Made by a program: the position numbers and the translations under genes
From: the human T2T-CHM13v2.0 reference genome, Homo sapiens
DNA length: 64,000 nucleotides
NCBI RefSeq assembly: GCF_009914755.1
Contig: NC_060931.1
Direction: 5' to 3' (one strand)
The notes under the pieces: model-generated
Seen by the model: the letters and a program-made list of their open reading frames with translations, nothing else
Database searches by the model: none
Told to the model about the DNA's origin: nothing
In this document: positions 16,915 through 46,334 of the stretch, one piece after another
Numbering within the stretch: position 1 is the first letter of the stretch
How the letters are laid out: every line of letters starts with the position of its first letter

Positions 16915-17196
16915 GCAAAAAGCCGCAGCGGGCGAAAAGCCGCGGCAGCGGGGGGCGAAAAGCCGCGGCAGCGGGGGGCCAAAAGCCGCGACGGGCAGAA
17001 AGCCGTGGCAGCGGCGGGCAAAAAGCCGCGGCGGCAAAAAGGCGCGGCGGCGGGGGCAAAAAGCCGCGGCGGCGGGGACCAAAACGCCGCGGCGGCGGAG
17101 GCAAAAAGCTGCAAAAGCCGCGGTGTGGGGGCAGAAAGCCGCAGCGGGAGAAAGCCGCGGCTGTGGGGGCAAAAAGCCATGGCGGCGGGGGCAAAA
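16915..17196 (+). repeat. CpG-rich CAAAAAG-type minisatellite (GCGGCGGGGGCAAAAAGCC-like, about 15 degenerate units)
   Basis: Directly visible units, mostly 16-23 bp, T-poor on the + strand; resembles the GC-rich repeats described at human pericentromeric duplication boundaries. Confidence 0.85.
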
Positions 17197-17281
17197 TAGT
17201 GGAAATGGGGTAGAAGGCCGGCACGGCTTGGCATTGCTGGAGTGTGATGTGATAGGAAAAGTGCAGCCGAAGACAAAAAAA

Positions 17282-17290
17282 GATGTAAGT
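17282..17290 (+). promoter_or_regulatory. Consensus 5' splice donor (GAT|GTAAGT), candidate end of lncRNA exon 1
   Basis: Perfect GTAAGT at 17,285-17,290, about 90 bp downstream of the CpG-rich repeat. Confidence 0.45.
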
Positions 17291-42589: not shown

Positions 42590-44870
42590 CCCCCACCCAT
42601 CCTTTTTGAGGTATTAATTACATGTATGTTACACTGCTGCATATGGTCTCACATATCAATGAGTTTTTGGCTTTCTTATTTTAGTTTACCCATTTTCCTT
42701 TAGTTTGTAAAGCTTCTATTTTTTTCTACAAATTTTCTGATGTTAGGGTAAAATCCATTACTTATTCTATCTCATGGAATTTTTATTTCAAATATTTATT
42801 TTTCATCTATACATGTCACATTTTTCATTTTATAACTTCTATTTTTCTCCTATGTTCAATTTTCATTTAAGTAATTTGACATATATATGTATTTATCTAT
42901 ATGTATTTATAAAATATATTTACTTTAAGGACCTTGAAAATTCCTTCTTCTCTGTCATTTATAAATGACTTATTTTTATCCTGTTAATATTTATCTTAAG
43001 AATATATATCTTCCGGCTTCTTTGCAGGTCAGAGTTTTTTTTTTTTTTTTTGGATATTTTGATGTTATGCTATTGAATATCTAGATTTTATTGGCTACCT
43101 TTGAACAATGTTGTGGCAGGCAGTTCGGTAACTTCGGGAAGAGTAATTTTCTGTTGTTGTTTTAAATCTTCTCTTTAAACTTTGTTGAGTTAGTCTAGAG
43201 CCATCTGTAATTTGGAGCTAAATGAGCACTGTCACTAGGGCATGAACCTCCAGTGGTCTTTACTGAATATCCTGGAGGTACAGAGGGGATTCCCTTCTCT
43301 GGCTGGTCAGAGCTAACATGTCTTCCTGTCATGTGATGCCAGGGAAGTCTTCTTCTTCCAACTCCCTGGTAGAGTCCTTTGCTGAGCTCCTTAGAATTTC
43401 ATCCTATGTACATTTGGCTTAGGGACTTGGGAGAAACCTTATGCTGATTCTTATTTCCTTTCTCCGTAAACTTTCTCTTCTACTACACATTCCAGCTGCT
43501 TAACCTTTTTTTGATTTTTATCTGGTTCCTCAGTGCAATGACAATGTCTGCTGTCTCTGGGATTCCACTCTACTGCTGTCACGGAGAACCTGGGAATAAA
43601 GCAGGACTCATTCTGGTTCCTTCTCTTCTCTTGCAGAGCACAGTCCTGTGCTGCCTGATGTTCAGTACTTCAAAAAAATGTTTCATATATTTTGTCCAGT
43701 TTACTATTCTTTAACTCTAAAAGTGTAACTCCAGTCCCAGTTACAGCATCATGTTCTGTAACTCTACTCCTTGTTGCTTCATTCTGCCATTGTCTGGTAT
43801 GATCGCCCCTTTCCCTTCTGTAATCAGGCCAAGAGCATAATACTAGTCATAACTGCACAGCTTGCCTCCGTTGTGTTAAAAAATCACTGAGACTTAATTG
43901 TGTCCAACTTTTTAAATGTGAATATAAGTACAACTAAAGCTATATTTTGGTTAACATTTGCATTGCATGCTTTTCCATTATTTACTTTCAACATCTGTGA
44001 AATATAAATATAAATTATAAAAACTTTAAGAGAGTCCATTTAAAAAAGTCTGGTCTGAATACGTTTTCACTGGTTTATTACAATGTGCATTCTTGACTCC
44101 AGGGTCTAATATAATTGGTACATTTGTCTATTTGCAAAAAAAACTTGACAATATTTTAAAATTAATTTATCCGACTCACAACTTATATGCTTCTGCTGTT
44201 GTATGGAAGATACATTTTAAACTTTATGAGATAGCATTCTGTTATACAGTTGATATCCAATTAAATTTCTCTCCATGTTTATTTCTTTCATTAAAATAAA
44301 TCATTCTTCTAACTGCAAACTTTCATCAGGGATCATGTCTCTTCTACCTGAAGAATAATCTTTAGTATTTCCTTTCCTGTGGGTCTGCTTGGGAGAAATT
44401 CTTTATTGTATCTTTGCTTTTGATGGATATGTCCACCAAGTAGATAGTTCTAGGTCGGCACTTATTTTATTTCAGGACTTGAACGATATCAGTACCTCAC
44501 TTTTTGGCTTTCATCGTTTCATTTGAGAAGGTTGTTATCAGTCAACTCTTTCTCTTTGCAGTTAGCCCAATTTTTTTATCAAGTGCTCTTTATATTTTTC
44601 TTTTACTTTTCAGAAATTGTCCCATTATGTTTCTAGGTGTGTCCTCTGTATGTGGTTTCCTTTGCTTTGCAAAGTCTCCTGAACCTGTGGTTTAATATTA
44701 TTGGTCAATTTTGATAAAACCTCTAACATTGACACTTAAAATTCTGTTCAGACCAGCTGTTTTCTCCTTCTTAGATTTCAACGTGTTAGATTATTACTGT
44801 ATCCTTTATATGTTTTAAATGACCTTTCTCTACTTTTTTTTTAGTTGGTTAATCTGTATTAGTGTATACT
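42590..44870 (-). mobile_element. Old L1M fragments
   Basis: T-rich antisense L1M text (ctttagtatttcc...gggtctgct...aaattc; ttattggtcaattttgataaaa). Confidence 0.55.
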
Positions 44871-46333
44871 TTGTTTTTTTATTTTATTTTATTTTATTAT
44901 TATACTTCAAGTTTTAGGATACATGTGCACAATGTGCAGGTTTGTAACATAAGTATTCATGTGCCATGTTGGTGTGCTGCACCCATTAACTCATCATTTA
45001 CATTAGGTATATCTCCTAATGCTATCCCTCCCCCCTCCCCCCCACCCCACAACAGTCCCCGAAGTGTGATGTTCCCCTTCCTGTGTCTATGTGTTCTCAT
45101 TGTTCATTTCCCACCTATGAGTGAGAACATGAAGTGTTTGGTTTTTTGTCCTTGCGATAGTTTACTGAGAATGATGATTTCCAGTTTCATCCATGTCCCT
45201 ACAAAGGACAGGAACTCATCATTTTTTATGGCTGCATAGTATTCCATGGTGTATATGTGCCACATTTTCTTAACCCAGTCTATCGTTGTTGGACATTTGG
45301 GTTGGTTCCAAGTCTTTGCTATTGTGAATACTGCTGCAATAAACATACGTGTGCATGTGTCTTTATAGCAGCATGATTTACAGTCCTTTGGGTATATACC
45401 CATTAATGGGATGGCTGGGTCAAATGGTATTTCTAGTTCTAGATGCCTGAGGAATAGCCACACTGACTTCCACAATGGTTGAACTAGTTTACAGTCCCAC
45501 CAACAGTGTAAAAGTGTTCCTATTTCTCCACATCCTCTCCAGCACCTGTTGTTTCCTGACTTTTTAATGATCGCCATTCTAACTGGTGTGAGATGGTATC
45601 TCATTGTGGTTTTGATTTGCATTTCTCTGATGGCCAGTGATGGTGAGCATTTTTTCATGTGTTTCTTGGCTGCATAAATGTCTTCCTTTGAGAAGTGTCT
45701 GTTCATGTCCTTCGCCCACTTTTTGATGGGGTTGTTTGTTTTTTCTTGTAAATTTGTTTGACTTCATTGTAGATTCTGGATATTAGCCCTTTGTCAGATG
45801 AGTAGGTTGCAAAAATTTTCTCCCATTTTGTAGGTTGCCTGTTCACTCTGATGGTAGTTTCTTTTGCTGTGCAGAAGCTCTTTAGTTTAATTAGATCCCA
45901 CTTGTCAATTTTGGCTTTTGTTGCCATTGCTTTTGGTGTTTTAGACATGAAGTCCTTGCCCATGACTATGTCCTGAATGGTAATGCCTAGGTTTTCTTCT
46001 AGGGTTTTTATGGTTTTAGGTCTAACGTTTAAGTCTTTAATCCATCTTGAATTAATTTTTGTATAAGGTGTAAGGAAGGGATCCAGTTTCAGCTTTCTAC
46101 ATATGGCTAGCCAGTTTTCCCATCACCATTTATTAAATAGGGAATCCTTTCCCCATTGCTTGTTTTTCTCAGGTTTGTCAAAGATCAGATAGTTGTAGAT
46201 ACGCGGCATTATTTCTGAGGGCTCTGTTCTGTTCCATTGATCTATATCTCTGTTTTGGTACCAGTACCAAGCTGTTTTGGTTACTGTAGCCTTGTAGTAT
46301 AGTTTGAAGTCAGGTAGCATGATGCCTCCAGCT
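44871..46333 (-). mobile_element. L1PA (PA2-PA4-like) 3' 1.46 kb, truncated, no TSD
   Basis: ORFs match the L1 ORF2 C-terminus ([10 protein letters not shown]...[20 protein letters not shown]...); 3' UTR and poly(A) at about 44,871-44,900; ends abruptly at ...gatgcctccagct. Confidence 0.97.
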
Positions 46334-46334
46334 G

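What the first reader, a model, noticed from the sequence alone, without database searches (positions are those of the whole stretch)
16916..46334. A 29.4-kb cassette capped by a CpG-rich CAAAAAG repeat appears to be pasted into one L2 element
Seen: the antisense L2 at 16,741-16,914 stops exactly where the GC-rich repeat begins. At the far end a young L1PA is cut mid-ORF2 at 46,333 with no TSD, and L2-like text (aagtgcttaaaaagga...) resumes roughly where the left L2 stopped. The flanks are MIR/L2-rich while the block is rich in L1M, LTRs and Alus. Known: CAAAAAG/CAGGG-type repeats mark boundaries of human pericentromeric duplicons, and large interspersed pericentromeric repeats such as PIR4 exist in many copies. 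Inference: this is a DNA-level duplicative transposition of such a unit (about 25.7 kb without the SVA) into euchromatin-like sequence. It has no poly(A), no long TSD and no terminal repeats, so both junctions can be read at base resolution.
Basis: partly seen in the sequence, partly recalled or inferred. Interest (0 to 1): 0.85.

Follow-up and report, generated by a model that had tools for sequence, protein, structure and literature searches.

The report
Mosaic of segmental duplications, not an insertion
The 29-kb block is part of a many-copy pericentromeric duplication, but the "flanks" are themselves copied pieces from further down chromosome 7, one lodged inside the block's own cap repeat, so this is an ordinary duplication patchwork and not a cassette pasted into one old repeat.

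Summary
A GGGCAAAAAGCCG-type tandem array starts at 16,916. Copy number jumps there from 4 copies to at least 38 paralogs, and falls at 46,333/4 to 2 copies. The minus-strand L1 is cut inside ORF2 (about residue 865), and a chr18 paralog carries that L1 further. The SVA (24,942-28,665) came later. No TSD brackets the block.

The "pasted into one L2" model fails. Both flanks copy one 48.9-kb segment at chr7:128.186-128.235 Mb, where their homologues lie 31.5 kb apart in opposite orientation and each runs on into other sequence.

The right flank is the end of a complete inverted copy of that segment. It runs to about 66.869 Mb and is fused to the cut L1 at a TCCA(G)CT microhomology.

The left flank is a 17.4-kb piece of the same segment. 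It has CAAAAAG array on both sides (a second array at window -827..-501, with a 98-bp exact repeat), and the duplicon continues beyond it, collinear with paralogs that lack the piece. At the left junction, the flank is the insert.

Two inverted arms of at least 21.7 kb enclose 61 kb. This is a known kind of architecture, and the order of events is only inferred. No outgroup genome was available.

The parts
1..16916 (+). Arm 'W-A'. This is a 17.4-kb piece (it starts at window -500, outside the window) copied from chr7:128,186,491-128,203,871. Homology ends at 16,916, within 1 bp. It is one arm of an inverted repeat whose partner lies at chr7:66,851,985 to about 66,869,434.
   Evidence: Four copies only at 150-1,350, 7,000-8,200, 13,000-14,200 and 16,735-16,915. 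Identity to the 128.2 Mb locus is 96.5% (K 0.029) and ends exactly at 16,916. The left boundary at -501 follows a CAAAAAG array.
16916..17200 (.). CAAAAAG-type GC-rich tandem array, part 2. Part 1 lies at window -827..-501. A 98-bp stretch (17,057-17,154) is repeated exactly at the end of part 1.
   Evidence: TRF. Alignment of the two array parts shows 98/98 identical and 78% column identity overall. The best match of the 98-mer in 6 paralog arrays is only 68-83%.
17201..24941 (+). Body of the pericentromeric (PIR4-like) duplicon, first part.
   Evidence: Collinear at 93.1-93.7% with chr10:39.0 Mb, chr17:27.9 Mb, chr18:15.36 Mb and chr22:17.06 Mb; the chr22 copy reaches only to 22,101.
24942..28665 (-). 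SVA-type retroelement with a 2.7-kb VNTR. It is a late insertion private to this copy. TSD at 24,928-24,941 and 28,666-28,679.
   Evidence: VNTR rows in TRF. Absent from 4 of 4 paralogs and from the 99.5% copy at chr7:66.32 Mb. TSD printed. The family name rests on recall of SVA structure; no repeat library was run.
28666..44872 (+). Body of the duplicon, second part. The near-identical inverted copy at chr7:66.312-66.35 Mb ends at 37,416. The chr10 and chr17 paralogs end at 42,345.
   Evidence: There are 39 paralogs at 37,000-38,150 and 34 near-full paralogs at 43,860-44,860, the best at 95%.
44873..46333 (-). L1 fragment that belongs to the duplicon: 3' UTR plus ORF2p residues about 865-1275. 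It is cut at 46,333 by the junction.
   Evidence: PDB matches to LINE-1 ORF2p. It is the same insertion in the chr18 paralog, where the alignment 36,439-46,333 is unbroken and the L1 continues upstream.
46327..46333 (.). Junction microhomology. TCCAGCT (L1) overlaps TCCACT at the end of the 128.2 Mb segment.
   Evidence: junction print. Homology to chr7:128.235 Mb reaches back to 46,327.
46334..64000 (-). Start of a complete inverted copy of the 48.9-kb chr7:128.2 Mb segment. It runs on past the window to about chr7:66,869,434, where the inverted arm, array and duplicon-left part follow.
   Evidence: 46,327-48,808 is 96.1% identical to chr7:128,235,397-128,232,925, reversed. 58,708-64,000 is 97.2% and 92.6% identical to chr7:128,223,000-128,217,643, reversed. 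The predicted position of the inverted arm is 132 bp from where it was observed. X and the private L1 are shared by the 128.2 Mb and 66.85 Mb copies.

Best explanation
The window shows a patchwork of segmental duplications in 7q11.21, not a cassette dropped into unique DNA.

Shown. (1) The block 16,916-46,333 is the larger part of a local copy of a pericentromeric duplicon that exists in roughly 40 copies. In longer paralogs the order is left part, then GC-rich tract with CAAAAAG array, then body, then an L1.

(2) A 48.9-kb segment S from chr7:128.186-128.235 Mb is present here twice. A complete inverted copy starts at 46,327, where it is fused to the cut L1 through a TCCA(G)CT microhomology, and it ends about 49 kb further on against an inverted array and duplicon-left part. 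A 17.4-kb partial copy (window -500..16,916) sits inside the CAAAAAG array of the local duplicon. It has array on both sides, including a 98-bp exact repeat, and the duplicon's left part lies beyond it.

(3) The result is two inverted arms (duplicon-left, array, W-A) of at least 21.7 kb around a 61-kb spacer.

(4) A module made of the arm, the array and the block up to 37,416 was copied again, inverted, to chr7:66.31-66.35 Mb. After that the SVA landed in the window copy.

Inferred. S came from 128.2 Mb into a resident duplicon copy, with breaks in or at the GC-rich array and in the L1. A later break-repair or replication template-switch event (inverted duplication, possibly with a deletion) created the A|array junction at 16,916. 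The array acts as a preferred breakpoint. The structure has no evident function.
For: Block as a duplicon copy. They give 38, 34 and 39 paralogs, collinear at 93-95%.

The block is truncated at both ends relative to paralogs. The chr10, chr17 and chr18 copies share at least 3.5 kb beyond the array at about 90%, and the chr21 locus (L007) shows the same left-of-array sequence in print. The chr18 copy continues the L1.

The flanks come from one distal segment. The left flank has 4 copies and the right flank 2. Homology to 128.2 Mb stops at 16,916 and at 46,327, and the 128.2 Mb locus continues with other sequence at both points. The right flank is collinear with it, inverted, through to 64,000. 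The same continuation X, with the same private L1 and TSD, is present at chr7:66.85 Mb.

The flank sits inside the duplicon. The duplicon-left part is found 1 kb outside each of the three arms, at mirror-symmetric spacing. The 6 kb left of the window is collinear with the chr10, chr17 and chr18 copies, at 88.6-89.6%, and in the chr18 alignment runs on into the GC-rich tract and array. Homology to 128.2 Mb starts at window -501, directly after array. The 98-bp exact repeat of array sequence lies on both sides, against 68-83% for the best match in paralog arrays.

Relative ages, as substitutions per site: block versus paralogs 0.040-0.058; flanks versus 128.2 Mb 0.023-0.034; window versus the 66.33 Mb copy 0.0024-0.0029; arm versus arm 0.003 or less. 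For the arms, searches give bit scores equal to the self hit and one search gives 2162 against 2167.

No paralog is closer than 95% to the block at the two places sampled.
Against: No outgroup or second human haplotype could be examined, so the 128.2 Mb to 7q11.21 direction and the order of events rest on parsimony and divergence only.

The margin between block divergence (0.040 or more) and flank divergence (up to 0.034) is small. CpG content could inflate the block figure.

The array duplication around the 17.4-kb piece is exact for only 98 bp. The adjoining 140 bp or so is about 75% alike, with indels, which a simple recent target-site duplication does not predict.

About 12 kb of the inverted S copy (chr7:66,838,001-66,850,484) was not read; its collinearity rests on coordinate arithmetic.

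The array and left part outside the right arm are inferred from one search hit and symmetric spacing, not from the sequence itself.

Every whole-genome search scored at most 40 candidates, so the counts are lower bounds and a closer donor could in principle have been missed.
Confidence: 0.8

Rival explanations
1. A 25.7-kb duplicon unit (plus a later SVA) was transposed as DNA into a single L2 element in otherwise unique sequence. The two flanks were once contiguous.
For: Copy number does jump at both ends. The L1 is cut and is longer in a paralog. There is no poly(A) or TSD. If the 31.5-kb interval at 128.2 Mb were inverted, the two flank homologues would abut, so the geometry does not by itself forbid an ancestral A|B adjacency.
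Against: Two loci (128.2 Mb and chr7:66.85 Mb) continue the left flank with the same other sequence past 16,916. At 128.2 Mb the right-flank homologue is preceded by unrelated sequence. That sequence shows no likeness to the left-flank L2-like text (z = 1.2). The left flank has array and duplicon on its far side too. The flanks are duplications, not unique DNA.
Confidence: 0.03
2. The duplicon pieces are the newcomers. Two fragments (left part with array, and array with body) landed on either side of a pre-existing copy of the 128.2 Mb piece.
For: Pericentromeric regions accept many duplicons, and the polarity cannot be read from one haplotype. Block divergence from paralogs (0.040-0.058) is not far above that of the flanks.
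Against: It needs two independent arrivals that happen to be adjacent parts of one unit, in the same orientation, with overlapping array ends that share 98 exact bases. Four paralogs show the uninterrupted order left part, array, body. The W-A piece is a truncated version of the full copy next door.
Confidence: 0.07
3. This locus is the ancestral donor of the pericentromeric duplicon family.
For: The copy is about equally distant (4-6%) from all sampled paralogs, and no closer relative exists.
Against: The paralogs are just as far from each other, at 91.0-94.5%, so the pattern is star-like. That does not place this copy as an outgroup. The body is cut inside an L1 that a paralog carries further. 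Its array is short, 285 bp against GC-rich tracts of 730-1,340 bp.
Confidence: 0.03
4. Assembly artefact: one or more junctions are misjoins in this repeat-rich region.
For: The region carries arms about 99.9% identical and about 40 paralogs, which is a setting where assemblies can fail. The L1|B junction exists once only.
Against: The A|array junction is present in two separate places that differ by 0.24-0.29%. The array|W junction spacing recurs at three places. The mirror symmetry is exact to the base where checked.
Confidence: 0.02

Closest known systems
PIR4, the 'pericentromeric interspersed repeat' of Horvath et al. 2003, Mol Biol Evol 20:1463. Recalled: the paper is not held. Only its title was seen, in a reference list.
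   Same: A tens-of-kb unit. Between 34 and 39 paralogs were found per probe, on chr1, 2, 7, 9, 10, 13-18, 21 and 22, clustered in blocks.
   Different: Identity with the published PIR4 sequence could not be tested. The size I recall for PIR4 is about 49 kb, whereas here 25.7 kb (body) plus at least 4.8 kb (left part) are present. This copy is interrupted by a 17.4-kb foreign piece and an SVA, and is cut in an L1.
GC-rich boundary repeats of pericentromeric duplications, of the CAGGG and GGGCAAAAAGCCG types (Eichler 1999; Horvath 2000). Recalled: those papers are not held. Passages of PMC2566985 that were read say CAGGG repeats spread to many pericentromeric regions in great apes.
   Same: A tandem GC-rich array lies exactly where the homology partner changes: at -501 and at 16,916 here, and with different partners at chr17:27.70 Mb and chr22:17.06 Mb.
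   Different: Here the array is not just a border. A euchromatic piece sits inside it, flanked by a 98-bp exact repeat of array sequence. In 4 of the 6 paralog loci printed the array is internal to the duplicon rather than at its edge.
Inverted segmental-duplication pairs that flank invertible spacers (recalled as a general class).
   Same: Two arms of at least 21.7 kb, nearly identical, in opposite orientation around 61 kb.
   Different: No evidence was gathered here that the spacer actually inverts in people.
L1- or SVA-mediated insertion or transduction.
   Same: The block contains an L1 and an SVA, and it ends in L1 sequence.
   Different: The block as a whole has no TSD and no poly(A), and the L1 end is an internal break rather than a 5' truncation: the paralog continues it.

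Membership tests
Segmental duplication | At least 1 kb of non-transposon sequence, at least 90% identical to another place in the genome. | tested here: met
   Block 93-95% over 5-14 kb stretches. Flanks 96-97% to chr7:128.2 Mb. Identity of 99.5-99.7% to chr7:66.33 Mb.
PIR4-type pericentromeric interspersed duplicon | A large unit present in about 40 or more copies. | tested here: met
   38 paralogs at the block start, 39 at 37.0-38.15 kb and 34 near-full paralogs at 43.86-44.86 kb. Each search scored at most 40 candidates.
PIR4-type pericentromeric interspersed duplicon | Copies confined to pericentromeric regions and acrocentric short arms. | tested here: inconclusive
   Hits cluster at, for example, chr2:89.4-94.9 Mb, chr7:58.3-60.0 Mb, chr16:32.5-39.5 Mb and chr1:126.9-144.0 Mb. 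That these lie next to centromeres is recalled, not computed. Outliers are chr7:53.3 Mb, chr2:132.5 Mb, chr9:77-80 Mb and chr16:52.2 Mb.
PIR4-type pericentromeric interspersed duplicon | Sequence identity with the published PIR4. | not testable with these tools
   The paper and its sequence are not held.
CAAAAAG-type GC-rich boundary repeat | A tandem GC-rich array of about 16-23-bp units containing CAAAAAG. | tested here: met
   TRF rows at 16,930-17,196. A second array is printed.
CAAAAAG-type GC-rich boundary repeat | It lies where the homology partner changes. | tested here: met
   Partner changes at -501 and at 16,916. Two of the 6 paralog loci printed have other left partners.
   In the only other loci that hold them, the flank homologues are 31.5 kb apart and inverted, and each continues into other sequence. 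Human paralogs were used, not outgroups.
   No transposon library was available. blastn, nhmmer and local alignments found nothing.
Retrotransposition of the block | A target-site duplication and a poly(A) tail at the block ends. | tested here: not met
   The longest shared word is 5 bp. The block begins with a GC-rich array and ends inside ORF2.
LINE-1 (44,873-46,333) | It encodes ORF2p. | tested here: met
   E = 2e-44 and 7.5e-139 to solved human LINE-1 ORF2p, residues 865-935 and 1062-1274. Pfam gave no hit for these C-terminal pieces.

The most novel reading that the evidence does not exclude
The CAAAAAG array is a breakpoint and acceptor that has stayed active in recent human-lineage time. 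At this locus it has taken up euchromatic chr7:128.2 Mb sequence, with both ends of the 17.4-kb piece inside the array and a 98-bp exact array repeat around it. That gives a base-level record of how euchromatic segments are seeded into pericentromeric duplicons. The resulting arms (about 99.9% identical, at least 21.7 kb) should make the 61-kb spacer, block included, invert recurrently among people. Which arm touches the block's cap repeat would then be polymorphic.
Probability: 0.3. Interest if true: 0.45.

Novelty: already known. Interest (0 to 1): 0.25.

Why it matters
It matters mainly as a correction. From a single window, "flank" and "insert" cannot be told apart in duplication-rich DNA. 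Here the apparent host sequence is the guest at the left junction.

For specialists, the locus offers three junctions readable at base resolution between a pericentromeric duplicon and a 48.9-kb euchromatic segment. Two of the three lie in a GC-rich array. It also offers a near-perfect inverted repeat that may drive inversion in 7q11.21.

None of this departs from the long-described mosaic architecture of human pericentromeric duplications.

Tried and rejected
(1) Testing the L2 claim directly. blastn (word 7) and nhmmer of 16,700-16,915, 17,197-17,900 and 46,334-46,900 against the masked window plus 187 kb of paralog sequence returned only the four block paralogs and one hit at E = 0.27. Smith-Waterman scores against shuffles were at background, with z from -0.6 to 1.2. 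The whole-genome DNA search is not sensitive enough for L2: one search found only paralogs. So whether the flank text is L2 stays untested.

(2) A 16.7-kb query (47,300-64,000) was swamped by an old L1 and did not even return itself. It was replaced by fetching a 6-kb piece of the 128.2 Mb locus.

(3) At first I read the L1 hits next to the left-flank homologues as showing that the window's L1 belonged to the flank. The printed junctions show a different, private L1 with its own TSD and an inverted 5' part, so I rejected that reading.

(4) I considered chr7:53.3 Mb as the ancestral locus of the duplicon. Its homology stops at the 44,831-equivalent against both the window and chr18, and nothing more could be fetched. 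This is left open.

(5) Literature. Searches for PIR4 with pericentromeric, for GGGCAAAAAGCCG / CAAAAAG / 'CAGGG repeat' / 'pericentromeric interspersed repeat', for the three paper titles, for boundary-repeat terms, and for 7q11.21 with inversion found no paper describing this locus or repeat in the held library. Horvath 2000 and 2003 are not held.

(6) Pfam on the L1 ORF pieces gave no hit. The PDB sequence search was used instead.

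Full report
**What is at the coordinates.** The stretch 16,916-17,200 is a GC-rich tandem array. TRF gives a period of 23 and the consensus GGGCAAAAAGCCGCGGCAGCGGG, with 8.5 copies at 16,930-17,109 and further rows out to 17,196. 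The element at about 44,873-46,333 is an L1 on the minus strand. Its T-rich 3' end is on the left. Its translations match solved human LINE-1 ORF2p at residues 865-935 and 1062-1274 (Pfam found nothing). So 46,333 does fall inside ORF2. The 3.7-kb element at 24,942-28,665, with a long VNTR, has a 14-bp TSD.

**The block is one copy of a many-copy duplicon.** The window's own genome could be searched. A probe spanning the left junction (16,700-17,500) returned 40 scored candidates out of 140.
- Two cover the whole probe: the window itself and an inverted copy at chr7:66,328,922-66,329,723.
- The other 38 all begin at probe position 215-259. They lie on chr1, 2, 7, 9, 10, 13, 14, 16, 17, 18, 21 and 22.
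- Many extra tandem hits to the array part also appeared.

I fetched 45-50 kb around four paralogs. They are collinear with the block at 93.1-95.2%:
- chr10:39.0 Mb and chr17:27.9 Mb match 16,917-24,941 and 28,666-42,345.
- chr18:15.36-15.39 Mb matches out to 46,333, interrupted by extra L1-rich sequence in the chr18 copy at the 35,638- and 36,440-equivalents.
- chr22:17.06 Mb matches only to 22,101.

All four lack the SVA. Probes further in found 39 paralogs at 37,000-38,150 and 34 near-full paralogs at 43,860-44,860, none above 95%. The paralogs are as far from each other (91.0-94.5%) as from this copy. In the chr18 copy the L1 runs on past the 46,333-equivalent and encodes ORF2p residues 585-822 there. 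So the window's L1 was broken, not 5'-truncated at insertion. No TSD brackets the block.

**The flanks are not one split target.** The last 181 bp of the left flank occur at four places:
- the window;
- the 66.33 Mb copy;
- chr7:128,203,681-128,203,870 on the plus strand;
- chr7:66,851,985-66,852,197 on the minus strand, about 14 kb beyond the window's right end.

The first 967 bp of the right flank occur in full at only two places: the window and chr7:128,234,425-128,235,391 on the minus strand.

At the 128.2 Mb locus, homology to the left flank (96.5%) stops exactly at 16,916. The sequence then runs on as TTAAATTGTATAAATAAATATAG..., followed by a short private L1 with its own TSD. The copy at 66.85 Mb has the same continuation and the same L1. 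Homology to the right flank (96.1%) stops at 46,327, where TCCACT overlaps the L1's TCCAGCT. At 128.2 Mb that point is preceded by unrelated sequence.

A 6-kb sample of the 128.2 Mb locus is collinear, inverted, with 58,708-64,000 within 16 bp of the predicted offset. Extending the same line predicts the inverted left-flank copy 132 bp from where one search found it. So the right flank is the beginning of one complete inverted copy of a segment S. At 128.2 Mb that segment reads W-A-X...B'. The two "flanks" correspond to points 31.5 kb apart on opposite strands of S.

**The left flank is the guest.** Probes at 150-1,350, 7,000-8,200 and 13,000-14,200 each have exactly four copies: the window, the 66.85-66.87 Mb mirror, the 66.33-66.35 Mb copy, and 128.19-128.20 Mb. 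The mirror's bit scores are equal or nearly equal to the self hit.

In the chr10, chr17 and chr18 paralogs the duplicon continues beyond the array for at least 3.5 kb at about 90%. The printed sequence left of the array shows the same for the chr21 locus. At chr17:27.70 Mb and chr22:17.06 Mb the array instead meets other partners.

A probe from that left part (chr10) hit chr7:66,771,067-66,772,472, just outside the window's left end and in the block's orientation. It also hit mirror-symmetric sites beside the other two arms, plus chr7:66.725 Mb.

The 6 kb left of the window is collinear with the chr10, chr17 and chr18 copies at 88.6-89.6% and in the chr18 alignment runs on into the GC-rich tract and array. 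It ends in a CAAAAAG array at window -827..-501. Homology to 128.2 Mb (95.8%) begins at -501, immediately after that array.

The last 98 bp of this outer array are identical to 17,057-17,154. The adjoining 140-170 bp are only loosely alike. In six paralog arrays the best match to the 98-mer is 68-83%.

Compared with the paralogs, then, the 17.4-kb W-A piece interrupts the array of a local duplicon copy. S is 48,907 bp at its source (128,186,491-128,235,397).

**Map in CHM13 chr7 coordinates.**
- Duplicon-left part: from 66,768,700 or before, to 66,773,172.
- Array 1: to 66,773,499.
- W-A: 66,773,500-66,790,916.
- Array 2 and body, with the SVA: to 66,818,872.
- Cut L1: to 66,820,333.
- Inverted S (B...X'-A'-W'): to about 66,869,434.
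- Then inverted array and duplicon-left part. This last item is inferred; the outer left part is 98% identical between the arms.

The arms are at least 21.7 kb long and the spacer is 61,068 bp. A further inverted copy at 66.312-66.35 Mb holds the arm, array 2 and the body as far as 37,416. It has no SVA.

**Relative ages (substitutions per site).**
- Block versus paralogs: 0.040-0.058.
- Flanks versus 128.2 Mb: 0.023-0.034. One low-complexity piece gives 0.049.
- Window versus the 66.33 Mb copy: 0.0024-0.0029.
- Arm versus arm: 0.003 near the junction, and about 1 mismatch in 3.6 kb further out.

With a recalled neutral rate of about 1.2e-9 per site per year, these correspond roughly to 17-24 My, 10-14 My and 1 My. 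This is inference only.

The likeliest order is as follows:
- The duplicon family dispersed.
- S arrived from 128.2 Mb at a resident copy.
- A rearrangement made the A|array junction and the inverted arms. It happened after S arrived and before the 66.33 Mb copy was made.
- The 66.33 Mb copy followed.
- The SVA came last.

How many events made the 16,916 and 46,333 junctions is open. Possibilities include fold-back or template-switch replication, an inverted duplication plus a deletion, or conversion from the other arm. The junction signatures are a 1-bp overlap at 16,916, a 6-7-bp imperfect overlap at 46,327-46,333, and array sequence on both sides of W-A. They fit end-joining or replication-based repair, not transposition.

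**Comparison with what is known.** This is the classic mosaic of pericentromeric segmental duplications with GC-rich repeats at the seams. The block fits what I recall of PIR4 (Horvath 2003). The array fits the GGGCAAAAAGCCG repeat of Horvath 2000. Neither paper is held, and five literature searches found nothing on this locus, so those names are recalled and not tested. The passages read in PMC2566985 confirm only that CAGGG repeats spread to many pericentromeric regions in great apes.

**Limits.**
- No outgroup genome, other human haplotype or transposon library was available.
- The L2 claim could not be tested directly.
- Whole-genome searches scored at most 40 candidates each.
As a result about 12 kb of the inverted copy and the outer end of the right arm were not read.

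**Verdict.** The identity of the block is right, and the insertion-into-one-L2 model is refuted. The locus is an ordinary, already-described kind of structure, with some value as a base-resolved example.

Noticed in passing
window 24,942-28,665: The SVA-type element is absent from the copy at chr7:66.32 Mb, which differs from the window by only about 0.3%, so it is very young. Its right (5') end carries the tail of an Alu plus an A-rich run before the TSD. By eye and recall this looks like a 5' transduction.
   Followed up: partly
window 1-16,916 and chr7:66,851,985 to about 66,873,749 (outside the window): Inverted arms of at least 21.7 kb. They show about 1 mismatch in 3.6 kb sampled, 5 in 1.65 kb near the junction, and 98% identity in the outer duplicon-left part. 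They enclose 61,068 bp. This is a likely substrate for recurrent inversion.
   Followed up: partly
L045 (chr7:53,305,501-53,309,500): A copy of the duplicon body (93.4% to 42,573-44,831) lies at chr7:53.3 Mb, away from the pericentromeric clusters. Its homology ends about 40 bp before the L1 insertion point, against both the window and chr18. It could be a source locus or an orphan copy.
   Followed up: partly
L031 1,745-2,625 and L032 (chr7:128.204 Mb and 66.851 Mb): A short L1 lies about 55 bp beyond the 16,916-equivalent. It has an inverted 5' segment and a TSD (ACTTTTTACATTTTT). Both copies share it, so it predates the duplication from 128.2 Mb.
   Followed up: yes
chr10:38.97-38.99 Mb and chr17:27.86-27.88 Mb (loci L014-L015, L024-L025): Beyond the 42,345-equivalent both paralogs run into a long tandem, satellite-like array. 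There are many off-diagonal matches at 70-83% over 1-17 kb.
   Followed up: no
L048 1-2,000 (chr7:66,767,400-66,770,000) and its paralogs: The duplicon-left part contains a tandem repeat of several hundred bp. This shows as stacked hits to probe positions 1-782 at 77-81%. The repeat varies in length between the three chr7 copies.
   Followed up: no
chr7:66,721,727-66,726,646 (outside the window): A fourth copy of the duplicon-left part lies 45 kb upstream of the window's. It is 90-94% identical, which is closer than other chromosomes' copies in the outer probe (85-87%) but not in the inner one (up to 96%). Its context is unknown.
   Followed up: no
window 46,880-47,300: A dispersed repeat of about 410 bp gave 39 scored hits at 73-85% across the genome. 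It is probably a solo LTR.
   Followed up: no
window 30,592-31,179: A 590-bp (CTTY)n low-complexity tract. The stretch 28.7-37.4 kb around it differs more from the 66.3 Mb copy (0.6-0.9%) than the rest does (0.25-0.3%).
   Followed up: no
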